From Shigella phage vB_SboM_Phaginator: DNA of 64,000 nt. Within the stretch, counting starts at the first letter, position 1; each line of letters begins with the position of its first letter. The notes below the pieces were generated by a model that saw only the letters and a program-made list of their open reading frames with translations, was not told where the DNA came from and made no database searches. The DNA is taken from the sequence record OL615012. One strand, 5' to 3'. Below are positions 12-63,465 of the stretch, one piece after another. The position numbers and the translations under genes were made by a program.

Positions 12-2189
12 TTAGGCCGCAAGGGCCTTCATAGTTTTAGCGATTTGGGAAACTTCATCATCACTTAAAGAGTTGCGATAACCGATGAAGTCAGAAACAA
101 TACGGAATTTCTTGGTAAACTCAGCAACCATTTTATCACTATTTTTTGAAGCATTACGTGATAATTCATCAAAGAGATTAGTTACTGTCCAGATATCATG
201 ACCGATGGTATCTTTTCCACCGTTGAAATATACACCCTGTAATGAACTAACCATATTAGCGAGTCGTGTATATTCTTCAGAAACTTCATCTACACTGAAG
301 TACTTCATCATAAAATCTAACTCAGGATACTTGATAATTTTATCAATATATCGTTTAGCTGAACTTGAATAACCTACATACTTATCATAATCTACATCAT
401 CAAAAGCATCTACATATAAATCACGCAAAGCTTCAAAAATACATTGGCACTGACCGAGTTCTTTTACCTTTTTCTGTAAAAGCGGACGAATAACATAAAA
501 TTCATTAATGCCAATAAGATTAGCCATACGAATCAAAATATTCATAGATGGATGACAAAGCGATGTAGTACCATCCATAGAGAAAATATCAGAACGATGC
601 ATATACGCTACATAACCAGTAATTTCATCTGCTTCTGATGTGAGAGTAAACAGTTCCTCTTTTTCCCAGCGCCCGTCTTTAATTTCAAACTTAAATGCAG
701 TAGCAGCTTTAGGACGAGGAGCTGCACTTTTTACTACCTTTGGAATATAACTTTTAACTAAAGCTTCGATTTCTGACAAATAATGTATGTTAACTTCATC
801 ACTTTCAAACATTGCCATAATATCAGGAAGCAAATCAATCTGCGATTCTACTTCCGGATTAATAAACAGAAGACGCTCATTATGATGAATATTCAAAGTG
901 TTATTAAATTCACTATCATCTAATGCACGTGCTAATCCACGGACAATATTAACACGATTTTTAATATTATCAATAACAATATTAATTTTTGTCGTATTAA
1001 TACCAAACAGACGATAGCTTGACGCAACGGCTGAAGTTTCATGACTTTGCTTAATGCGTTTCAGTCGAGGGTCAAGATTTACTTCATACACCACGCCTGC
1101 ATTACATAACTTACTGTCAGGTTCAAACATGCTCTGCATCTTTTTATATGACAGATTTTTAGTCGTGAATTTGACTGAATTACTAATCATATAATCTCGA
1201 GCAGAATACCCCATCTTCATCAATTCACGATATGTGTGACGGGGAGATGTAGATTCTTTAAATCGTTTTACATCTTCATTAAATGCTTTCTCACTAAGCT
1301 CTTTAACTCGTTCAATAATATTTTTACGAGTACGATCATCCAATGAAAGAGCTTCACGTGATGGAGCAATATCAAGTGAACCCATTGGAAATTTAATGTA
1401 ATTCACTTCATTGCGAATGCTTAGCCAGTTACGGTCTCTAATAACACCATCGATAGGATAAACGATACCGCCGTAGATAGCATATAATCCACCACGATCA
1501 GGCCAGTATCTTTCTGGATTTACACCGTAATAATCATCAAAATCCGGAAAATAATCAATTTCGCGGTCAAGACCATTAATGATAGCCAAATCTTTGAACG
1601 GTCGCATGATATAAGAAACTTCATAAGCAAAGTTTCTAAAGTCTTTTTCTTCAACTGGAACTACGATTTCAATGCCAGTTTTATCATCTGGACCCATTTC
1701 TTTCACGAATGTAGGTTTAATTTGTGGACCATCACCATCCATGTAAGCTACATAACCACGAATTTCACCTTTATGATACGAAGTAATACTAAATGTATCA
1801 GTATAACTAAACGGAGATTTAGAACCTAAACCAAATCCGCCAATGAAATCGTTAGATTCAGCCTTAGATGAACTGAAGTATGAATTATACAAACCAGGAG
1901 AATTATCATCACCCTGAATATCAAAATCACTCATACCCGGACCAAAATCTCGGCAAACAAATCGTGGATCTAAACGTCCAGGAACTTGTATGATAAATTT
2001 TTCAGGATTTCCATTGAGAGCATGGGCATCAATCATGTTGGTAATCAATTCACGAACAACTGCGCGAATTTTGTTTGTATACAAATCAGATGACAGAATT
2101 TTAAATACTTTAGGAGATGCTGTGATGCTAAATGCTTTTGATTTAGAACCATTACCAAGAATTGTTTCTTTTTCAGTGGTGATAATCAT
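12..2189 (-). CDS. rIIA: rIIA protein (725 aa), GHKL-ATPase-like N-terminus
   Basis: 725-aa ORF at the same coordinates and length as T4 rIIA; motif [10 protein letters not shown] resembles a GHKL ATP-binding fold. Confidence 0.9.
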
Positions 2190-2199
2190 AATTTCCTCA

Positions 2200-2403
2200 T
2201 TAATTCATATTACGCTTAATAACTTCAGCAACTTCTAGTAGTTCATCTTTAGTTGCGGTGTCGGATTGAATTTTATCTCTAATATCTTTAAAGCGGTTTT
2301 TAAATTCTTCGGCTTCTCCCATATCGAAAAAACGTTGAATGATTCTATATTCTCGATGAACTGCTTTATCAAAAAGTTCTAAATTTACTTTATATGATTT
2401 CAT
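2200..2403 (-). CDS. rIIA.1: small acidic protein at the rIIA.1 position
   Basis: 67-aa ORF directly upstream of rIIA; ATG preceded by GAGGA; position matches T4 rIIA.1. Confidence 0.65.
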
Positions 2404-2428
2404 TTCAATATCCTCATTTGCCCAATTA

Positions 2429-2458
2429 ATTATACCACATCCTTGTGGTAAAGTAAAC
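2429..2458 (-). promoter_or_regulatory. T4-type early promoter
   Basis: Minus strand reads GTTTAC-18 nt-TGGTATAAT; leader then GAGGA and the rIIA.1 ATG. Confidence 0.7.
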
Positions 2459-4278
2459 TACTGGCTCATCCATTCTTTACGAAGGTCAGCATTATCTCCC
2501 ATGAGCATTTCAAAAAGCTCTTTCCAATTCTCAGGAAGTTTAACAACATCATATACTGGGTTCTGAATCATCTCACGATATTCAGATTTTTCCAAAGAGC
2601 CAAGTCCCTTAATATAACGGATGCTATGTTTAGGTAGAGCATCTTTGGCACTCTCATATTCAGCGACTGTATAAAACCATTCTTGTTTTTTACCGACCTG
2701 AGCGATGATTACAGGAGTTTTGACAAAGCGAATTCGTCCTTGCTCAAACAGTTCTGGCCAATTACTAAAAAATCCGAGCAGAGAAGGATAAATGCTTCCT
2801 AAACCATCATGGTCAGCATCGGTCATAATAGCAATATTATGATAATTCAAGTTTTCAGCTTTTTCACCAAGAACTAATCCAGTGATTGCGCAAATATCAA
2901 ATAGTTCTTTGTTTTTAAGCATATCAGCATATGACATACCCCAACTGTTGAGAACTTTACCACGCAATGGATAACCACCATGAAGTTCTTTATCACGAAC
3001 ATCAATAAGATATCCGATAGCAGAATCACCCTCAGTCAAGAAAAGAGTAGTATCAGCATCTTTACCGCAAAGATTAGCTTTAATATGTTTATGAACCTTT
3101 GCCTTAGAAGCCTTTTTAGCTGCTTTAGTTTCTGCTGCTTTTTCTGCCGCTAATTTACGGGCCAAAGCAGCTTCAATAATCGGCATTAAAATTGCTTCAT
3201 TATTTAGAATAGCGCGTGAAATCTTTTTAGCATCAAGCTGAATATGACTACGAATTTCACCAAATGGAGAAGTCAAACGCTCTTTAGTTTGAGAATCAAA
3301 TCGCATGTTTTTCATATCACGAACAAACATAACGATAGTTAAACATTCTTTAACACGTGCTTTAGTCACATCAATTTTGAACTTACGTTTGATTTGTGGA
3401 ATAAGGTCTTCACAAATATCATCCATCACACAGTCAATGTGATGGCCACCATTCTTAGTGTGAATGTTATTCACATAAGTTAATTGGCGAAATCCATCCG
3501 GTGAACGACCAACCGCAATAGAACAATTTTCTTGTTCTTGAACAATAGCATGTTCATCATACTGTCGTGCATATTTCTTAAAATTGCCCTGAACCTTTTT
3601 ACCATTAAAGGTAAATTGAATATCAGGATAAACAACAGCAAGTGTCTGGAGACGATCTAGTGTAATGTCAAGATAAACTTGGGACAGCTCATTAGTTTCA
3701 AATGACATAAAATCAGGAATGAAAGTAACACGGGTTCCTTTCCATTTTCCAGGAATATCTTCCCATGATTTATTTTCCATGCCATTTGAACAACGAACTA
3801 CAATATTATTTTGACCGTCGCCAGTTTCACCGACAAACATCACAGAAAAAATGTTTGTCAAACTAGAACCAACACCGTTCATACCGCCGGTGACGCGTTC
3901 TTTATCATCACCAAAGTTACCACCTGCTTTTGGAATAGTCCACGCAGCAACAGGACCAGGAATTTCTTCACCGGTAGGTGTTTTAACCATCGCTTGTGGA
4001 ATACCACGACCGTTATCTTCAACTGTTACTTGATTGTTTTTGATAGTAACATTAATTTTATTCGCGAATTTAAACTTAGTACGAATACCTTCATCTACTG
4101 AGTTATCGATAATTTCATCAATAAGCTTAACAAGACCAGGTACATACTGAACACTTTCCCATTTACCAAACAGAAAGCGCTCATGCATTTCATTAGCAGA
4201 AGAGCCAATGTACATGCCACTACGCTTTTTGATATGTTCAATATCGCTCAGAATTTTAATTTCATTCTTAATCATCAC
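2458..4278 (-). CDS. 39: DNA topoisomerase II large subunit, single ORF covering T4 gp39 plus gp60
   Basis: 606-aa ORF with GyrB-like N-terminus (GMYIG, EDNGRGIP); T4 splits this into 39 and 60, T2-type phages have ~605-aa fused form. Confidence 0.9.
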   Translation of the reverse strand: MMIKNEIKILSDIEHIKKRSGMYIGSSANEMHERFLFGKWESVQYVPGLVKLIDEIIDNSVDEGIRTKFKFANKINVTIKNNQVTVEDNGRGIPQAMVKTPTGEEIPGPVAAWTIPKAGGNFGDDKERVTGGMNGVGSSLTNIFSVMFVGETGDGQNNIVVRCSNGMENKSWEDIPGKWKGTRVTFIPDFMSFETNELSQVYLDITLDRLQTLAVVYPDIQFTFNGKKVQGNFKKYARQYDEHAIVQEQENCSIAVGRSPDGFRQLTYVNNIHTKNGGHHIDCVMDDICEDLIPQIKRKFKIDVTKARVKECLTIVMFVRDMKNMRFDSQTKERLTSPFGEIRSHIQLDAKKISRAILNNEAILMPIIEAALARKLAAEKAAETKAAKKASKAKVHKHIKANLCGKDADTTLFLTEGDSAIGYLIDVRDKELHGGYPLRGKVLNSWGMSYADMLKNKELFDICAITGLVLGEKAENLNYHNIAIMTDADHDGLGSIYPSLLGFFSNWPELFEQGRIRFVKTPVIIAQVGKKQEWFYTVAEYESAKDALPKHSIRYIKGLGSLEKSEYREMIQNPVYDVVKLPENWKELFEMLMGDNADLRKEWMSQ

Positions 4279-4328
4279 TTATCCTCGTTTGGTTTCGGGA
4301 ATATTATACTCCGGCAATCATAAAGCTA

Positions 4329-4347
4329 AAGGCCCGAAGGCCTTTTA
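4329..4347 (-). terminator. stable tetraloop hairpin (AAAGGCC-CGAA-GGCCTTT)
   Basis: Perfect 7-bp stem with tetraloop immediately 3' of the interrupted ORF; T-run on plus side, so strand assignment uncertain. Confidence 0.45.
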
Positions 4348-4605
4348 TTTAAAACGAATAGTTGAATCCTTAAAGAACAGCCCAGAACATACTGTTCCTT
4401 CTACTTTCTGCCCAGTAGGTCCAATAGCACGAAATCCAGTATGTTGGAAATCATTTTCAGAGCAACCGAACTAGTTATATCCAGTGATTTCAATATTCGT
4501 AAAACCACTTGATGATAAAATTTTAGTTGCATTATCAGCATCAGTACATCCTACTAAAGATACTGCTAATACTAATGCTGCGATAGAACGATTAACATAT
4601 TTCAT
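4345..4605 (-). pseudogene. small lipoprotein-like ORF interrupted by an in-frame TAG
   Basis: ATG at 4605, MKYVNRSIAALVLAVSLVGC lipobox signal, 44 codons, TAG at 4471..4473, then 41 more codons in the same frame to TAA at 4345. Confidence 0.45.
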
Positions 4606-4610
4606 AATTT

Positions 4611-4982
4611 TCACTTAAATTTAATGGCTTGAAGGAGACTAATAATTCTTAAACGGCTTCTTTCATCTTTAACTGTAAAAGAAAGAGGGTCACCAGATTT
4701 CATAGTAATAGTACATTCAAAATCAAAATCTTCGGAAACTTCTTTGAAGAAGTCAAATTCTTCATCATAAATTAGAACATTACTCTGACAACTATGAAGA
4801 ATTTTTCCATCATTTCCAGATGCTGTACTAATCATTGTAACATTATGACCTTTCATATCTTCAACGATAAATTCACTAGTCAATATTACAGCATTAATAG
4901 AACTATTCCTATTACTAGCAGAAAGTAGATATTTCTGTTCTTCACCTTCACGAATGCGATATTTCTTACCAATTTTAAACAT
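4611..4982 (-). CDS. hypothetical protein (123 aa)
   Basis: ORF-track ORF co-directional in the early array between gene 39 and dexA. Confidence 0.6.
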   Translation of the reverse strand: MFKIGKKYRIREGEEQKYLLSASNRNSSINAVILTSEFIVEDMKGHNVTMISTASGNDGKILHSCQSNVLIYDEEFDFFKEVSEDFDFECTITMKSGDPLSFTVKDERSRLRIISLLQAIKFK

Positions 4983-4984
4983 AA

Positions 4985-5161
4985 TTACCCTTTAAGTAAG
5001 TCGTAAAAACCACCATTCACATGCTTAGGAGCAGAAGGCCGACGAGTAGACAAACGATGACATTTAGGGCAAACATCATTTTCTCGTTCAGAAATCTTTT
5101 TAATTTTTTCATATTCATGCCCACAATCTTCGGATTGGCATTTATAATCATACATTGGCAT
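4985..5161 (-). CDS. small zinc-ribbon protein (FmdB-like)
   Basis: Hand-translated 58-aa ORF MPMYDYKCQSEDCGHEYE...CPKC with two Cys pairs; fills the gap between two ORFs; below the 60-aa track cutoff. Confidence 0.5.
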   Translation of the reverse strand: MPMYDYKCQSEDCGHEYEKIKKISERENDVCPKCHRLSTRRPSAPKHVNGGFYDLLKG

Positions 5162-5163
5162 AA

Positions 5164-5571
5164 TTATTCCTTAAAGTGTGCTTTCAACATCTGATACAAG
5201 GACCATGCCTGTTCATTATTTTCAATAGTAACTTTCATTAAAGGAAAATCAGATGTATCAGTTACTGGTGCAGGTTCTTCAACTTCATCAACGATTGCAT
5301 TTGGGTCTTCAACTTCATCAAAAAACTGTGCATCATCTGCTAAAAGACAAATATAATTTTCACTTAAGATGTCTTCATATAAAAATAGTGTTCCACTAGA
5401 TGTCATAATTTTAGTTGGACTTTGAAGAGAATCAACATCCAAGATTTTAAAAGGATGCATACCTAAGCGCTGTGCATAAGTTCCATTCTCAATGTGGTCT
5501 TTAATAAAAGCTTCTTGGGCTTGTTTATTTTTGAATTGATACCATTTATTAACTTCAAATTTAATAGCCAT
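5164..5571 (-). CDS. hypothetical acidic protein (135 aa), at the T4 goF position
   Basis: ORF-track ORF; position relative to 39 and motB matches goF but sequence not recalled. Confidence 0.55.
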
Positions 5572-5786
5572 TAATAAATTTCCTTCCAGTAAGTTGTACC
5601 GTCTTCAGTGATTTCACGGAATACACCATAAATCGGTTGTTTATCACCAACCTTTTCATACACATAAACCGAAGTCAAGTGAGTAAACTTAATGGTGTGT
5701 TCCTTTTGAACTACTACCAAATCTGGATCGAATAATACATCTTCAAATTCGTCATTAGTACAATTCTGAACAATTTTACGTTTCAT
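5571..5786 (-). CDS. hypothetical protein (71 aa), at the T4 cef position
   Basis: 71-aa ORF, same length as T4 cef as I recall; ATGA-type overlap with the upstream gene. Confidence 0.55.
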
Positions 5787-5799
5787 TACAATTTCCTCA

Positions 5800-6069
5800 T
5801 TAATTGAACAGTGGAGCGATGCGTTTCAGAAGAGTAGCAGCACCTTTGGCGAATTTTACATCATGAAAAACAGTTTCTTCTTCCGTTACAACACGAGCTT
5901 TAATGTTTTCACAATCCCAATTTTTACGAACAATCTTTAAAAGCTGCAGTAAATCTTTACATTCAGCAATATCGATAACACATCCACGAGAATCTTCCAT
6001 TATTGCACGATAACCGTAAGCCATACCATAATCGTTGAAAGATTGTTCGATGATGATTAAGTTTTCCAT
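5800..6069 (-). CDS. hypothetical protein (89 aa)
   Basis: ORF-track ORF trimmed to the ATG after GGAGAATAAA; the track start is a TTG inside the leader. Confidence 0.6.
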   Translation of the reverse strand: MENLIIIEQSFNDYGMAYGYRAIMEDSRGCVIDIAECKDLLQLLKIVRKNWDCENIKARVVTEEETVFHDVKFAKGAATLLKRIAPLFN

Positions 6070-6093
6070 TTTATTCTCCAAGTTGTTTTCTGT

Positions 6094-6136
6094 ATCAGTA
6101 GTTGATATTGATATAGTACCATAATCAACTACTGAT
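6094..6136. repeat. perfect 13-bp inverted repeat (ATCAGTAGTTGAT / ATCAACTACTGAT, 17-bp spacer) over a promoter -10
   Basis: Arms at 6094..6106 and 6124..6136 are exact reverse complements; spacer contains TGGTACTATAT. Confidence 0.6.
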
Positions 6137-39661: not shown

Positions 39662-39970
39662 TTAGTCTTCTATGATATCTCTATTATATCCAAGTGAAAT
39701 GAGAGTTTCTTTGAAGTGTTTAATGTTCTTTTGTCTAGAATCATTAATGAAAATGACTGGATAACGAATGTTAAGAGATGTGAATCCAGCGCGTTTAGCA
39801 AGAGATACAATCAGCGGACGATCATACTCAATCTTACCATTATTTGTAAGAACTTTATAGAAAGTAAAAGGAGCATTAAGCTCCTTTAGAAGTTTTGTAA
39901 CTGATTGACATCCAGGACAACGACCTACTTCATCTGGAATTCCATAGACTTCAATCTTATTTTGTTTCAC
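39662..39970 (-). CDS. nrdH: glutaredoxin-like protein NrdH
   Basis: 102-aa ORF with CPGC redox motif; T4 NrdH length and position. Confidence 0.85.
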   Translation of the reverse strand: MKQNKIEVYGIPDEVGRCPGCQSVTKLLKELNAPFTFYKVLTNNGKIEYDRPLIVSLAKRAGFTSLNIRYPVIFINDSRQKNIKHFKETLISLGYNRDIIED

Positions 39971-39972
39971 AA

Positions 39973-40185
39973 CTATTCCTTACTAAGAGCAGCATTCAGC
40001 TTGTTAGTAATTTTATCCAGACGCTTATTGAACTCACTAGAAGATAAGCCCTTTTCTGGAGAAATTAAACTAATCACGAAAAATATAGCAATAAAAGGAA
40101 TAAGGAAAATAGCTCCAACTGCCATAAACAGAAAGAATGTTACGGTTGTAAGAAAATCAGCTAAACCTTTACGAAATTTATACAT
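39973..40185 (-). CDS. small membrane protein (70 aa)
   Basis: Hydrophobic stretch FLFMAVGAIFLIPFIAIFFVISLI. Confidence 0.55.
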   Translation of the reverse strand: MYKFRKGLADFLTTVTFFLFMAVGAIFLIPFIAIFFVISLISPEKGLSSSEFNKRLDKITNKLNAALSKE

Positions 40186-51592: not shown

Positions 51593-51626
51593 TTTATTCT
51601 CCAAATCCGTATCAGTTGATAGTTGT

Positions 51627-51656
51627 ATAGTACCATAAAGCTTTATGCTTGTAAAC
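51627..51656 (-). promoter_or_regulatory. T4-type early promoter (TACTAT -10) with conserved leader
   Basis: Minus strand GTTTAC-18 nt-TGGTACTATACAACTATCAACTGATACGGATTTGGAGAATAAAATG. Confidence 0.6.
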
Positions 51657-51680
51657 TGTTTTGTGAAAAATTTTTGAAAT

Positions 51681-51705
51681 AAAAAAAGGGAGCCCGAAGG
51701 CTCCC
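51681..51705 (-). terminator. intrinsic terminator
   Basis: Minus strand GGGAGCC-UUCG-GGCUCCC followed by UUUUUUU. Confidence 0.75.
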
Positions 51706-51707
51706 TA

Positions 51708-52721
51708 TCATTTATAATAACTTCGGTGGTTTTCAAGATAGACCTTCTCAAGGAAGTCATCCCAGAAACTCATGTCTACTTTTTGCTGCATACCGTTCTT
51801 AGAAGCTTCAGTAGATGCTGCTTCTACTTGATCGACCACATCTTCCAAAAACTCTTGAACCGTTTTAAATGGATGCTTACCCAACTTCACGTCAAGAATA
51901 AATGGAGCATCTTTGAGTGGATAAACCAAGTCACCAGTTTTGTAAATTTCCAATAGTTGGAGTCCACCACGGCAAGCATGACTCAGAGCTTTCCAGTCAA
52001 TACCTTCATTGGCTTCGGCCTTACGAGCACGTTCACCATATTCAGCATCTAATTTGTTCAGTGACTGCTTAAGCTCAATAAGAGAAAGCGTTGTCTGATA
52101 TTTACGACCCAACACAGTGTAGAACGTTTGTGGGCCTGTTTTCTCATGATTATGGAACACCCATTCACAGAATTCGTTTTCTGGAAGACGATGCTTAATA
52201 TCTTCAACTTTAGTGCGACGCTGCTTAATGGAACCGTCTTCTTGGTAATCAACCCATTGCTCGGGGATTTGATTAACTACTTTCAATACATCACGTAATG
52301 CAGCCAAACGAGAACCCTTGACACCGTATTTAGAAGCTTGCTTGCGGACATATCCTAAATAGGATTTCATGTTAGTCGTATAAAAACGAGAACGGTTGTC
52401 TTGAATAAACTTCCACACATCAGGCAAATCAGATTTAACCACTAGTTCAGGTGGAGTGTGAAGCATATCCAATGCTACAGTTTCACCATCTGCTGCTAAT
52501 TTAAAGAAATATTTAAGACTGTATAGTTCATGGTCAATATCATCTTTAGTGTTTTTAGATGATGTGTTGTTAGTGTTTTTACTCATGTGCTCTTTAACGT
52601 TTCCGATAAGAATATCACGAGCAGGAGGAACAAAGATTTCTTTAAAATCTACATCAGATTCTGGAGTAGAAGTTCCATAAAGATGACTACCAAAATAGCT
52701 TTTCATTACTGTTTTCATCAT
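51708..52721 (-). CDS. predicted nucleotidyltransferase (Pol-beta superfamily-like), 11th ORF after nrdC
   Basis: 337-aa ORF; N-terminal GSHLYGTSTPESDVDF fits the G[GS]-x9-13-DxD signature. Confidence 0.6.
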   Translation of the reverse strand: MMKTVMKSYFGSHLYGTSTPESDVDFKEIFVPPARDILIGNVKEHMSKNTNNTSSKNTKDDIDHELYSLKYFFKLAADGETVALDMLHTPPELVVKSDLPDVWKFIQDNRSRFYTTNMKSYLGYVRKQASKYGVKGSRLAALRDVLKVVNQIPEQWVDYQEDGSIKQRRTKVEDIKHRLPENEFCEWVFHNHEKTGPQTFYTVLGRKYQTTLSLIELKQSLNKLDAEYGERARKAEANEGIDWKALSHACRGGLQLLEIYKTGDLVYPLKDAPFILDVKLGKHPFKTVQEFLEDVVDQVEAASTEASKNGMQQKVDMSFWDDFLEKVYLENHRSYYK

Positions 52722-53179
52722 TCAGCCTTATATTCAATAACAGGACATACTTTAGCTTTACGAGCTTTTAAAAATTCAACGATAATCGATTTCTTGGGTT
52801 GAATAGGAGGTAAACCTTTATACGCTCTATCAATATTTTCTACGTGTAAAGCATAGTCCTTTTTCCATTTATAATCTTTATATTTTTCACGCAGTTGTGC
52901 AGGAATAACAAATGAACCGATAATAAGTAAAACAACCAAAAGCGCAAGTATAAATGCTGATGGAAGAAGAGTCCATAAACTACCGAAAATAAGCCAACGT
53001 TGTAGGCTTTCTGCACAAATAATTGTTAGCCCTACGAGTATAGTACACCCAAAAATAGAAACGAAAAATGTAGGAATGGCAATAGACCAAAAATATGCGC
53101 ATAGTGTCTTAGGTCGTTGCCATTCATCGTTAAACAATTTGAATAATTTATAGTGCCAAGAGTTTTCATTAATAATCAT
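52718..53179 (-). CDS. multi-pass membrane protein (153 aa)
   Basis: Three to four hydrophobic helices. Confidence 0.6.
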   Translation of the reverse strand: MIINENSWHYKLFKLFNDEWQRPKTLCAYFWSIAIPTFFVSIFGCTILVGLTIICAESLQRWLIFGSLWTLLPSAFILALLVVLLIIGSFVIPAQLREKYKDYKWKKDYALHVENIDRAYKGLPPIQPKKSIIVEFLKARKAKVCPVIEYKAE

Positions 53180-53181
53180 AA

Positions 53182-53703
53182 TTATCCTTTCATTGAAGGC
53201 GTAACGGTTGTTAAATACTTAATCATCGCTTCAGCTTCTGATTTTGATAATGAAATTTCTCCATTGTTTTGACGAATAGAAATAAAATCCGGATGACGGT
53301 CACCACCAGCTTTTAAAACACACATATAAGTATCAGTTTCATCTTCAATATTTGAAATGATTGAAGCAGTTCCACATGAATGCGGTTTTTGATAAATCAA
53401 TACAGCTTTTCTTCCGCCATTTGACTGTTCATAAACTTTTAATACATCAAACAAATCACTTCTTTTATCAATAGCTAAAATGTTATTTTCATCTTCAATG
53501 TTAAATCCTTCGGATACTTCATAAAGTGTTACCCATAAATCACCGATGTCAATAACAGCATTTACTTTTCCACGGCTTTCAAGAGTATGACAAATTTTCT
53601 TGATTTCGTCATAACTCATTTTAATAATATCATCTCCTTGACTAAGAAAGATGTCATTTTTAAATTCAACACGAATTAAACCGCTTTCACTTGAAATAAA
53701 CAT
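53182..53703 (-). CDS. hypothetical protein (173 aa), paralog of next ORF
   Basis: C-terminus SKSEAEAMIKYLTTVTPSM parallels TKDEAIALKTYLDSVIPTM of the neighbour. Confidence 0.6.
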   Translation of the reverse strand: MFISSESGLIRVEFKNDIFLSQGDDIIKMSYDEIKKICHTLESRGKVNAVIDIGDLWVTLYEVSEGFNIEDENNILAIDKRSDLFDVLKVYEQSNGGRKAVLIYQKPHSCGTASIISNIEDETDTYMCVLKAGGDRHPDFISIRQNNGEISLSKSEAEAMIKYLTTVTPSMKG

Positions 53704-53709
53704 ATTTCC

Positions 53710-54252
53710 TCACTTTGAAATCATAGTTGGAATAACAGAATCAAGATAAGTCTTTAGTGCAATAGCTTCGTCTTTGGTAAATGTGACAATATGCGATCGA
53801 AAATCATCAATTTGACGAATAGTTAAGACATCTCCATCTTCATAACATTTTGATACGTTTAAAACAGTTTCATCATTCTGATTGCAAGCGTTAGTAATAA
53901 TAGCATTGCAATTTTTAAACCATTTTAAACTATGTTTTCTTTCATTAGAATAATAAAAATATTTAATCTTAGTTATAAAATTATCCCAATTATTAATTGA
54001 TAAGCATATTGACTCGCTTTCAATATTAAATCCTGGGCATAAAGAATAGAAATGAATTTTATGCTCATCATTAATGCTTACAATTTTATCAGTATAAGAA
54101 TTTTCAATTTGGGTTAAACGAACAATTTCGTTAGGCGTAAAATATAGCATATCGTCTTCTTGTGTCAAACGATACATATTATTTACTTTTTCTATAGCCA
54201 ATTCACCAAAAAGTGAACTAACTTCTAATACTAATCGTTTCGCCTCACTCAT
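53710..54252 (-). CDS. hypothetical protein (~180 aa), paralog of previous ORF
   Basis: ORF-track ORF trimmed from GTG to adjacent ATG; shared internal GFNIE and C-terminal motifs. Confidence 0.6.
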   Translation of the reverse strand: MSEAKRLVLEVSSLFGELAIEKVNNMYRLTQEDDMLYFTPNEIVRLTQIENSYTDKIVSINDEHKIHFYSLCPGFNIESESICLSINNWDNFITKIKYFYYSNERKHSLKWFKNCNAIITNACNQNDETVLNVSKCYEDGDVLTIRQIDDFRSHIVTFTKDEAIALKTYLDSVIPTMISK

Positions 54253-54359
54253 CACTGTATACTCCTCTGAATCATATCAATAATGTTGTTCACCAGATTA
54301 TAAGTAAACATTGGGTAATTATATTGAATCATCACATACACAACAAACAAAATTTTCAT
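54252..54359 (-). CDS. small hydrophobic peptide (35 aa)
   Basis: Hand-translated MKILFVVYVMIQYNYPMFTYNLVNNIIDMIQRSIQ; stop overlaps the next start. Confidence 0.3.
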   Translation of the reverse strand: MKILFVVYVMIQYNYPMFTYNLVNNIIDMIQRSIQ

Positions 54360-54386
54360 TCTCTTCTCCTTGACAGTTGACAAGAT

Positions 54387-61427: not shown

Positions 61428-61593
61428 TTTATTCTCTCTAAATTTGGGCCATTCCATGGCGCGTGAATTGTCCATTTCTGTATTTACCCATTACCGCACT
61501 TGGGCTCGACCTTATTACAGGTTGGCTGGAATCCCTCACAGAATCATGAGGTCCAGCTTGTTCCCATTTTATTTGAATGTAAATAGATCTGAG

Positions 61594-62172
61594 TTAGGAA
61601 TTACGGGCTGCATTAGCAACGGCGTAAGCGTACTGGACATTAGCGTCTTTAAACGTACCTTTAGAGGTATCTATTTCTGCCTTAAAGCCGCCTTTAGCCA
61701 TAACATCGGCAAATTCTTTACGGAAAGCCATTGCATCAAGACCTTTCCATGATGATTTATGCTTGGCAAATTCAAGACCAGCGTAGTTGACAGCCTTAGC
61801 TAATTTATTATCAATAACCCATTTACCGGCTTTAGGCACAAACTTCGGGCCTTTTTGTTTAGAGAACAGTTTTAAATTCCAGCGACGAAGGTCACTGTCG
61901 GCTTTAACAAAAGCTGCGTCTAAGTTACTAGCAACAACATCTTCAATATGAGCAAATTTAAGTCCGTCAACTTCAATATTTAGATCGTTACGCCAGCGAA
62001 GTCCTTCCCAAGCGAAGGCTTTAAAGTCGGAAGCCTTTGTAGCTAAGTACCGTTCAATAGGAGCTGTTTTAGGGTCAAAGCCGTTTCCCGATCGGTAGGT
62101 CCACTCATCTTTATTAATGCCTTTGGCCTTTACTATAGAAGCTTCGGCAATAAATTCTTGATAGGTTTTCAT
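61594..62172 (-). CDS. ipIII: internal protein, IPIII-like (capsid targeting sequence)
   Basis: 192-aa basic ORF beginning MKTYQEFIAEA, the T4 internal-protein targeting sequence; T4 IPIII ~194 aa. Confidence 0.75.
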   Translation of the reverse strand: MKTYQEFIAEASIVKAKGINKDEWTYRSGNGFDPKTAPIERYLATKASDFKAFAWEGLRWRNDLNIEVDGLKFAHIEDVVASNLDAAFVKADSDLRRWNLKLFSKQKGPKFVPKAGKWVIDNKLAKAVNYAGLEFAKHKSSWKGLDAMAFRKEFADVMAKGGFKAEIDTSKGTFKDANVQYAYAVANAARNS

Positions 62173-62200
62173 GTGTTTCCTTGTTTGTTTTGATAGAGTA

Positions 62201-62230
62201 ATTATACCATATTAATACTTAAGCGTAAAC
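62201..62230 (-). promoter_or_regulatory. T4-type early promoter
   Basis: Minus strand GTTTAC-18 nt-TGGTATAAT upstream of the IPIII-like gene. Confidence 0.7.
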
Positions 62231-62233
62231 CGT

Positions 62234-62494
62234 TTAAGCTTTACCGCCAGAAATAATTCCGAAGTTGTTAAAATCATATCCAATATCGTCAACATCTACT
62301 TTAGGACTTGCTACAGCATAAGCAATTTCACTACGTTTTGCACAGGTGTTGATTTCTTTACCATCGCCACCTAAGAAAGAATACCCATTACGTTTTAATG
62401 AGCCAAAGTCTTCCGCATCACCAATGAAAGCTTTAACTTTAAATTTAGAACCTTTGGCATCTGCTTCAACGATAAATTCTTGATACATTTTCAT
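62234..62494 (-). CDS. internal protein, IPII-like (capsid targeting sequence)
   Basis: 86-aa ORF beginning MKMYQEFIVEA. Confidence 0.65.
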   Translation of the reverse strand: MKMYQEFIVEADAKGSKFKVKAFIGDAEDFGSLKRNGYSFLGGDGKEINTCAKRSEIAYAVASPKVDVDDIGYDFNNFGIISGGKA

Positions 62495-62500
62495 TTTTCC

Positions 62501-62604
62501 TTAGTAAATTGATTTACCAAAGTATTTGTACCAAGTCGGACGTTGATCAATTTTTTCATCTAAGCGTGCTTGATTTATCGCAATGGACGCTTCGGACGGG
62601 TCAT
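62501..62604 (-). pseudogene. denV: denV (endonuclease V) deletion remnant
   Basis: ATG after GGAGG encodes MTRPKRPLR then stop; a second frame reads [30 protein letters not shown], matching the T4 endonuclease V C-terminus as recalled. Confidence 0.6.
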
Positions 62605-62631
62605 AATTTCCTCCAAGTAGTTGATGAATGT

Positions 62632-62661
62632 ATAGTATCAAAACCCTTGGAGGAAGTAAAC
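62632..62661 (-). promoter_or_regulatory. T4-type early promoter upstream of the denV remnant
   Basis: Minus strand GTTTAC-18 nt-TACTAT, then GGAGG and the remnant ATG. Confidence 0.55.
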
Positions 62662-62662
62662 A

Positions 62663-63465
<803 letters not shown>

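What the first reader, a model, noticed from the sequence alone, without database searches (positions are those of the whole stretch)
4345..4605. Lipoprotein-like ORF interrupted by a single in-frame amber codon
ATG at 4605 opens MKYVNRSIAALVLAVSLVGC (lipobox) and runs 44 codons to TAG at 4471..4473. The same frame then continues 41 codons (FGCSENDFQHTGFRAIGPTGQKVEGTVCSGLFFKDSTIRFK) to TAA, just before a tetraloop hairpin. This is either a recent nonsense mutation in a nonessential gene, a suppressor-dependent allele from laboratory passage, or a sequencing error.
Basis: seen in the sequence. Interest (0 to 1): 0.45.

Follow-up and report, generated by a model that had tools for sequence, protein, structure and literature searches.

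The report
Amber-broken phage lipoprotein gene 39.1
A small, conserved lipoprotein gene (39.1) of a T4-like Shigella phage carries a real single-base nonsense mutation (Trp45 TGG to TAG) that almost certainly inactivates it; this is an ordinary loss of a dispensable accessory gene, and the same gene is broken independently in T4 itself and in several other wild phages.

Summary
On the minus strand, ATG 4605 opens a lipobox signal peptide (LVGC). TAG sits at 4473..4471 (codon 45), the frame runs 41 more codons to TAA 4347..4345, and a UUCG hairpin follows.

The ORF is gene 39.1 of a Tequatrovirus; the window matches Shigella phage vB_SboM_Phaginator. Relatives encode an intact 86-aa protein with TGG (Trp) at codon 45, so the amber is one G-to-A transition. 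None of four stop-allele 33-mers tested (three at codon 45, one at codon 42) occurs in the phage genome collection, whereas the TGG version occurs in 145 records.

An independent assembly of run SRR11575115 has the same TAG, which argues against an assembly error. No other gene in the 64-kb window is interrupted, and the window holds no tRNA gene.

The family is under strong purifying selection (dN/dS 0.03-0.09). Its most conserved part lies after the stop, so truncation removes three of four predicted strands and both conserved cysteines.

The gene is dispensable. The T4 reference has lost the lipobox Cys and is frameshifted, HY03 is frameshifted, and metagenomic contigs carry independent stops at codons 42, 45 (three more), 48, 50 and 57.

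Verdict: a genuine recent loss-of-function allele of an uncharacterised phage lipoprotein. Low interest.

The parts
4345..4605 (-). Gene 39.1 (ortholog of RB51 gp39.1). It has 86 codons plus TAA and is interrupted at codon 45 by TAG.
   Evidence: Searches give the reading. Searches show annotated 86-aa orthologs in NiC89, RB51 and KAW1E185. One search gives phrog_902 at E = 3e-35 over residues 1-86.
4546..4605 (-). Signal peptide with lipobox, codons 1-20: MKYVNRSIAALVLAVSLVG|C. The Cys20 codon is 4548..4546, and the +2 residue is Thr.
   Evidence: The sequence shows this directly. Cys20 is conserved in 47 of 48 family members. UniRef and NCBI name some relatives 'lipoprotein'.
4471..4473 (-). 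Amber codon TAG replacing Trp45 (TGG), a G-to-A transition at window base 4472. The next base is T.
   Evidence: One search gives the alignment. One search finds the TGG 33-mer in 145 phage records, and one search finds the TAG 33-mer in none. Searches show the same TAG in the Logan assembly SRR11575115_270.
4474..4605 (-). The part actually translated: a 44-aa precursor, giving a 25-residue mature lipopeptide after signal peptidase II. It keeps only helix 23-32 and strand 36-43 of the predicted fold.
   Evidence: One search gives the translation and the AlphaFold2 secondary structure. One search shows the GenBank record calls a 47-aa product from the upstream GTG (UGO46677.1).
4348..4470 (-). 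Untranslated remnant, codons 46-86. It encodes three predicted beta strands and the conserved Cys48 and Cys73, and is still identical in protein sequence to intact relatives.
   Evidence: 0 nonsynonymous against 5-8 synonymous differences from Tequatrovirus relatives; this is the lowest-entropy part of the family alignment.
4328..4345 (-). Hairpin AAAGGCC-UUCG-GGCCUUU, overlapping the last base of the TAA stop. Relatives annotate it as a putative terminator.
   Evidence: folds it at -10.7 kcal/mol. Searches show the ARNOLD terminator annotation in KAW1E185 and R5505. The simple terminator scan did not call it.
4611..4982 (-). Upstream neighbour, the RB32ORF005c homolog (123 aa). Its TGA stop lies 5 bases before the 39.1 ATG.
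2458..4278 (-). Downstream neighbour, the fused gene 60plus39 (DNA topoisomerase II large subunit). It fixes the synteny of 39.1.
   Evidence: 99.8% identity to the R5505 homolog.

Best explanation
This is a genuine, recent loss-of-function allele of T-even gene 39.1 in Shigella phage vB_SboM_Phaginator.

Shown:
- One G-to-A transition changed Trp45 (TGG) to amber (TAG).
- The DNA stock really carries it.
- The gene family is otherwise an intact, strongly conserved 81-91-aa protein with a lipobox signal peptide.
- Nothing else in the window is interrupted.

Inferred:
- The intact precursor is exported by Sec and lipidated on Cys20. The signal peptide is cut by signal peptidase II.
- Because residue +2 is Thr and not Asp, the mature protein is sent by the Lol pathway to the outer membrane.
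- There the 66-residue mature domain folds as one helix packed on a four-stranded sheet, probably stapled by a Cys48-Cys73 disulfide. It most likely acts in the envelope, for example against superinfecting phages.
- In a non-suppressing host, translation stops at codon 45. The UAG-U context favours termination. The product is a 25-residue lipopeptide with no fold, so the function is lost.
- The phage tolerates the loss because 39.1 is an accessory gene that single-phage growth does not need.
- Trp45 is where such mutations land most often because it offers two of the gene's four transition routes to a stop codon.
For: - Orthologs have TGG at codon 45 and are otherwise 98-99% identical.
- The TGG 33-mer is in 145 phage records. 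The TAG, AAT-TGA and AAC-TGA versions are in none.
- A second assembly from raw reads (Logan SRR11575115_270) is 100% identical to window 1471-6102, TAG included.
- The exact 47-aa product is UGO46677.1 of phage Phaginator. That record is OL615012.
- Among 134 annotated genes of relative R5505, only 39.1 has a mid-gene stop in the window.
- Family conservation: Cys20, Cys48 and Cys73 are nearly invariant, and the region after codon 45 is the most conserved. dN/dS is 0.03-0.09. Of 67 IMG/VR loci, 66 are intact.
- The AlphaFold2 model (pLDDT 77) places strands 2-4 after the stop.
- Dispensability: T4 NC_000866 has LINS in place of LVGC plus a +1 frameshift. HY03 is frameshifted.
- Independent mid-contig stops occur at codon 42 (19 contigs), codon 45 (L076 TGA, L077 TAG, L084 TGA), and codons 48, 50 and 57.
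- Of 38 one-step routes to a stop in the gene, four are transitions, and two of those are at W45.
Against: - I could not inspect read-level support, so a systematic error shared by both assemblies is not formally excluded.
- I could not see the phage's tRNA cluster, which lies outside the window, or the genotype of its propagation host. Suppression therefore cannot be excluded.
- Position 45 tolerates W, F, L, A, I and Y in the family, so a suppressed protein might work.
Confidence: 0.85

Rival explanations
1. Selected loss. The stop is not neutral drift. It was favoured because gp39.1 is costly, or is sensed by a host defence, in some hosts. Phages would then repeatedly escape by knocking the gene out, as happens with other non-essential phage 'trigger' genes.
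For: - At least eight independent nonsense alleles and four frameshift alleles sit in one 13-member protein cluster.
- One of them (G42 TGA) is on 19 contigs from several samples.
- A neighbouring gene of similar size (89 aa) shows only one truncated cluster with one member.
- Intact alleles are under strong purifying selection, so the gene is useful somewhere, yet it is lost repeatedly.
Against: - There is only one control gene, and protein clustering biases which truncations are seen.
- With billions of sequences, null alleles of any accessory gene are expected.
- None of the four stop alleles tested (three at codon 45, one at codon 42) occurs among the deposited isolates.
- The excess at W45 fits plain transition bias: 2 of 9 routes in codons 42-57, or about 44% if transitions are four times as frequent, against 4 of 8 observed.
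- No defence system or cost is known for this protein.
Confidence: 0.15
2. Sequencing or assembly error. The phage really has TGG.
For: It is a single-base difference from all deposited relatives.
Against: - The Logan assembly of SRR11575115 reproduces the TAG within 4,632 identical bases.
- The site is not in a homopolymer.
- A consensus substitution error is unlikely at the coverage usual for an isolate genome.
- Equivalent stops exist in other phages.
Confidence: 0.04
3. Suppressor-dependent allele. The phage is propagated on a host, or carries a tRNA, that reads UAG, so full-length protein is made.
For: Position 45 accepts several residues, including Tyr and Leu, in the family. T-even phages carry tRNA clusters that can mutate to suppressors (established knowledge).
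Against: - The window has no tRNA, and no other amber-interrupted gene appears in 64 kb.
- The isolate-style record name and host code give no sign of a laboratory amber stock; I did not read the isolation history.
- The UAG-U context is poor for suppression (established knowledge of context effects, not tested here).
- The parallel alleles use TGA and TAA as well, so no single suppressor explains them.
Confidence: 0.03
4. Programmed or leaky readthrough. The stop is kept to give a low dose of full-length protein plus a short lipopeptide.
For: Stops recur within codons 42-45 in several lineages, and the downstream frame is always intact.
Against: - The stop is absent from the tested isolates and from 66 of 67 IMG/VR loci.
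- No clade conserves it.
- Stops also occur at codons 48, 50 and 57, and frameshifts occur too.
- The intact downstream frame is explained by recency: 0-1 differences from the nearest intact alleles.
Confidence: 0.03

Closest known systems
gp39.1 of T-even phages (RB51 ACP30922.1, JS98 gp39.1; PHROG 902; UniRef name 'Lipoprotein')
   Same: It occupies the same locus between gene 39 (topoisomerase) and 39.2/RB32ORF005c. It is 97-99% identical over all 86 codons, with the same lipobox, the same stop and the same hairpin.
   Different: Codon 45 is TAG instead of TGG, so only 44 codons are translated. No function has been assigned to any member.
T4 reference allele of 39.1 (NP_049622.1, 65 aa)
   Same: It is another inactivated copy of the same gene in a viable phage, which shows the gene is dispensable.
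   Different: T4 is damaged at the 5' end: the lipobox LVGC is changed to LINS and there is a +1 T frameshift. The annotated product lacks the signal peptide. The window's allele keeps the signal peptide and loses the folded domain.
Classical T4 amber mutants (conditional lethals grown on su+ hosts)
   Same: It is a TGG-to-TAG transition in a T-even gene.
   Different: The gene is not essential, nothing indicates deliberate selection on a suppressor host, and no other amber is present in 64 kb.
Small phage outer-membrane lipoproteins that block superinfection (T5 Llp, Cor of phi80/N15)
   Same: From the sequence, it is similar in size, has a lipobox, has conserved cysteines in the mature part, and lies in an early-gene region. 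This is a functional analogy only.

Membership tests
T-even gp39.1 / PHROG 902 | Full-length sequence similarity to family members | tested here: met
   phrog_902 scores E = 3e-35 over residues 1-86 when codon 45 is read through. There are 47 homologs with E from 4e-50 to 4e-14.
T-even gp39.1 / PHROG 902 | Position directly upstream of the topoisomerase large-subunit gene 39 | tested here: met
   The gene order is the same in RB51, NiC89, KAW1E185, R5505 and T4.
T-even gp39.1 / PHROG 902 | Uninterrupted ORF of about 81-91 codons | tested here: not met
   TAG at codon 45. This is a disrupted allele of the family, not a functional member.
Bacterial-type lipoprotein precursor (signal peptidase II substrate) | Basic n-region, hydrophobic h-region and a lipobox [LVI][ASTVI][GAS]C | tested here: met
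   K2 and R6, then IAALVLAVS, then L-V-G-C at residues 17-20. The Cys is conserved in 47 of 48 members.
Bacterial-type lipoprotein precursor (signal peptidase II substrate) | Actual lipid modification and membrane location | not testable with these tools
   This needs palmitate labelling, globomycin sensitivity and fractionation. Outer-membrane sorting is inferred from Thr at +2.
Suppressor-dependent amber allele | A suppressor tRNA available in the phage or the propagation host | tested here: inconclusive
   There is no tRNA in the 64-kb window. The phage tRNA cluster and the host genome are outside what I could read.
Programmed stop-codon readthrough | The stop codon is conserved across orthologs | tested here: not met
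   A sense codon is present in 145 of 145 records with matching flanks and in 66 of 67 IMG/VR loci. Stops are scattered, rare and of all three kinds.
Superinfection-exclusion lipoproteins (Llp, Cor) | Sequence or specific fold similarity to Llp or Cor | tested here: not met
Superinfection-exclusion lipoproteins (Llp, Cor) | Binds and blocks the phage's own receptor | not testable with these tools
   This needs expression of intact gp39.1 and plating or adsorption assays.

The most novel reading that the evidence does not exclude
Gene 39.1 is a recurrent target of selected inactivation in wild T-even phages. The lipoprotein would be advantageous in some settings, hence dN/dS below 0.1. In others it would be costly or sensed by a host defence, so null alleles keep arising and one of them (G42 TGA) has spread across many samples. 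The Phaginator amber would be one visible case. If so, gp39.1 would be a candidate envelope-level trigger or exclusion factor worth characterising.
Probability: 0.15. Interest if true: 0.55.

Novelty: new member of a known kind. Interest (0 to 1): 0.2.

Why it matters
For annotation, the 47-aa 'hypothetical protein' of this phage should be labelled as a disrupted 39.1 (W45am), and the T4 reference 39.1 should be recognised as a damaged copy of an 86-aa lipoprotein gene. Biologically the finding is ordinary: an accessory gene lost by a point mutation. Its modest value is as a natural knockout of a conserved, uncharacterised phage lipoprotein. Comparing Phaginator with a TGG revertant would be a cheap way to look for the protein's function. 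The repeated independent knockouts suggest that function is conditionally dispensable.

Tried and rejected
- Pfam, NCBIfam and a PDB profile search gave no significant family or solved relative.
- Exact 26-mer scans of IMG/VR found neither the TAG nor the TGG form, so that negative says nothing about the amber.
- Literature searches for gp39.1, 39.1, SRR11575115 and defence-escape mutants found nothing on this gene. The only paper that names Phaginator merely lists its accession.
- The record OL615012 is not in the phage collection, so I could not read its tRNA region.
- I considered whether the stops clustering at codons 42-45 mark a special site. I rejected this after finding stops at codons 48, 50 and 57 and noting that protein clustering only shows truncations of about 41-56 aa.
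- A stop flagged at window 44230 is only a start-site difference.
- Three contigs that end at codon 44/45 (L074, L075, L085) are cut by contig ends and say nothing about a stop.

Full report
**1. Observation**

The minus strand reads exactly as described.
- ATG is at 4605, and the first 20 codons are MKYVNRSIAALVLAVSLVGC, with a lipobox L-V-G-C.
- 44 sense codons lead to TAG at 4473..4471.
- The same frame continues for 41 codons to TAA at 4347..4345.
- A 7-bp hairpin with a UUCG loop (4345..4328, -10.7 kcal/mol) overlaps the last base of the stop.
- Relatives annotate this hairpin as a putative terminator. The simple terminator scan did not call it.

**2. Identity of the locus**

The window begins like a T4-type genome, with rIIA, rIIA.1 and a fused 60plus39 topoisomerase gene at 2458..4278.
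- The interrupted ORF lies directly upstream of gene 39. It is the ortholog of the annotated 86-aa gene 39.1 of RB51, NiC89, KAW1E185 and R5505.
- Read through codon 45, it matches PHROG 902 (unknown function) over its whole length at E = 3e-35. Pfam and NCBIfam have no family for it.
- An exact look-up shows that the 47-aa product called from an upstream GTG is UGO46677.1, PHAGINATOR_4 of Shigella phage vB_SboM_Phaginator, 166,647 bp.
- A paper gives that genome's accession as OL615012 (PMC9686686).
- The record is not in the phage collection I could search. This explains why the best 20-kb match is only 96.3%.

**3. The change**

Aligned with three relatives, the only coding difference is TGG (Trp45) changed to TAG, one G-to-A transition at window base 4472.

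I used 33-mers with the variant base in the centre, so that megablast can only hit carriers.
- The TGG form is present in 145 phage records, all at 100% identity.
- AAC-TAG, AAT-TGA, AAC-TGA and a G42 TGA allele are present in none.
- A 61-mer with TAG has no exact match among 211 matching records. The TGG 61-mer has 64 exact matches.

Among deposited isolates, the stop is therefore private to this phage.

**4. Real or error?**

A Logan assembly of public run SRR11575115 (contig 270) is 100% identical to window 1471..6102 over 4,632 bases, and it includes the TAG. The next closest phages are only about 96% identical, so this run contains the same phage.

Two assemblies agree, the site is not in a homopolymer, and the change is a substitution. 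An assembly or typing error is therefore unlikely. Read-level counts remain the formal test.

**5. Is the phage an amber stock or recoded?**

I translated all 134 annotated genes of relative R5505 across the corresponding 66 kb and compared them with the window.
- Only 39.1 has a mid-gene stop.
- The one other flag, at window 44230, is a start-site difference.
- ARAGORN finds no tRNA in the window.

The T-even tRNA cluster lies beyond 64 kb, so I could not check it.

**6. What the gene encodes**

- 47 database homologs are 81-91 aa, apart from a few broken ones.
- Cys20 (lipobox), Cys48 and Cys73 are nearly invariant. G42 is invariant.
- The segment after codon 45 is the most conserved: mean column entropy 1.10 bits, against 1.29 for the mature N-terminal part and 1.94 for the signal peptide.
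- Position 45 itself is W in 21 members, F in 14 and L in 7, with A, P, I or Y in the rest.
- Of 67 IMG/VR loci from T4-like and other large phages, 66 have an intact ORF.
- Against Tequatrovirus relatives at dS 0.2-0.3, dN/dS is 0.03-0.09. Downstream of codon 45 there are 0 nonsynonymous against 5-8 synonymous differences.
- An AlphaFold2 model of the 97%-identical P0001 (pLDDT 77) gives a helix at 23-32 and four strands at 36-43, 54-61, 67-74 and 81-85.
- Foldseek against viral models returns only uncharacterised family members, some named lipoprotein. The PDB profile search is empty.

From established rules, the precursor should be lipidated on Cys20 and cut by signal peptidase II. With Thr at +2 it should be sent to the outer membrane. 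These steps, and a Cys48-Cys73 disulfide, are inferred and not shown.

**7. Consequence of the amber**

Termination at codon 45 leaves the signal peptide plus a 25-residue mature peptide. That peptide has the helix and the first strand only, and neither conserved cysteine. This cannot form the predicted domain, so the allele is most likely null in a non-suppressing host.

The base after UAG is U. From published work on context effects, which I did not test here, this favours termination and is poor for suppression.

**8. Dispensability and recurrence**

The T4 reference copy is itself damaged. It keeps the ATGAAATAT start, but the lipobox LVGC has become LINS and a +1 T shifts the frame. The annotated 65-aa product starts at an internal ATG and lacks a signal peptide. 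HY03 is frameshifted.

The 90% protein cluster that holds the window's product has 13 members, and all 13 are truncated or frameshifted forms, the window's own two products included. Fetching their contigs showed genuine mid-contig stops on different haplotypes:

| Allele | Change | Where found |
|---|---|---|
| G42 | GGA to TGA | 19 contigs from several samples |
| W45 | TGG to TAG | L077, 17 nucleotide differences from the window |
| W45 | TGG to TGA | L076, codon 44 AAT; L084, codon 44 AAC |
| C48 | TGC to TGA | L096 |
| E50 | GAA to TAA | L098 |
| G57 | GGA to TGA | L094 |

- A distant homolog, L053, has TGA at aligned codon 43.
- One of eight JGI metagenome loci is frameshifted.
- In every nonsense allele the downstream protein sequence is still that of intact relatives, so each is recent.

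**9. Why codon 45?**

The gene has 38 single-base routes to a stop codon. Only four are transitions, and two of those are at W45.

Protein clustering lets me see truncations only at about codons 42-57. Within that range W45 holds 2 of 9 routes. That share rises to about 44% if transitions are four times as frequent as transversions. The observed share is 4 of 8 independent alleles. Ordinary mutational bias is enough, and no site-specific mechanism is needed.

**10. Is the gene lost unusually often?**

I ran one rough control. A neighbouring accessory gene of 89 aa (window 5803..6069) has a 124-member intact cluster and a single one-member truncated cluster. Gene 39.1 has a 167-member intact cluster and the 13-member broken cluster.

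This hints at an excess of null alleles, and it leaves room for selected loss through cost or defence escape. It is a single control and clustering biases it. I give that reading about 15%.

**11. Verdict**

The finding is a true amber mutation, W45am, in the accessory lipoprotein gene 39.1 of a T4-like Shigella phage. It is recent, almost certainly inactivating and tolerated.
The sequencing-error and suppressor-stock alternatives are disfavoured.
- This is an ordinary event and scores low.
- Its small added value is a natural knockout of a conserved, uncharacterised phage lipoprotein, and the recognition that T4's annotated 39.1 is a remnant.

Noticed in passing
L004 (T4 NC_000866) 5398..5680, compared with window 4345..4620: The T4 reference gene 39.1 is annotated as 65 aa and is a damaged copy of the 86-aa lipoprotein gene. 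The lipobox LVGC is replaced by LINS, and a +1 T frameshift follows codon 24. The annotated start is an internal ATG without a signal peptide. T4 also lacks the RB32ORF005c homolog found at window 4611..4982.
   Followed up: yes
L078-L083 (ENA/Logan contigs, gene at 601-726): A GGA-to-TGA stop at codon 42 of 39.1 is carried by 19 contigs from several samples. All have a T4-type split gene 39 (516 aa). This null allele seems to circulate as a lineage, yet it is absent from the deposited phage genomes.
   Followed up: partly
L074, L075, L085 (contig ends at codon 44/45 of 39.1): Three metagenome contigs from different samples end within one base of codon 45. This is what a de Bruijn assembler does at a branch point, and it suggests codon 45 is polymorphic within those samples. 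I did not resolve it.
   Followed up: no
window 5167..5571 (-): The goF homolog (135 aa) is only 65% identical to that of the close relative R5505, while its neighbours are 98-100% identical. This looks like a locally replaced or fast-evolving gene.
   Followed up: no
window 61430..62960 (-): No homolog of the relative's denV (pyrimidine dimer glycosylase), or of two adjacent genes, is found here. The interval instead holds three ORFs that begin with motifs resembling T4 internal-protein capsid-targeting sequences: two start MK(T/M)YQEFI and a third contains MKTYSEFL. These are probably variable internal-protein genes.
   Followed up: partly
window 4301..4327 (-): Between the 39.1 hairpin and gene 39 lies AGCTTTA, then a spacer, then TATAAT (4308..4303). 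From memory of the T4 consensus, it resembles a MotA-dependent middle promoter for gene 39. I did not test it.
   Followed up: no
window 39665..40185 and 51600..54360: Several small genes of relative R5505 (R39986_40297, R51980_52180, R54836_55102, R55104_55289) have no counterpart in the window. This is ordinary accessory-gene presence/absence variation.
   Followed up: no
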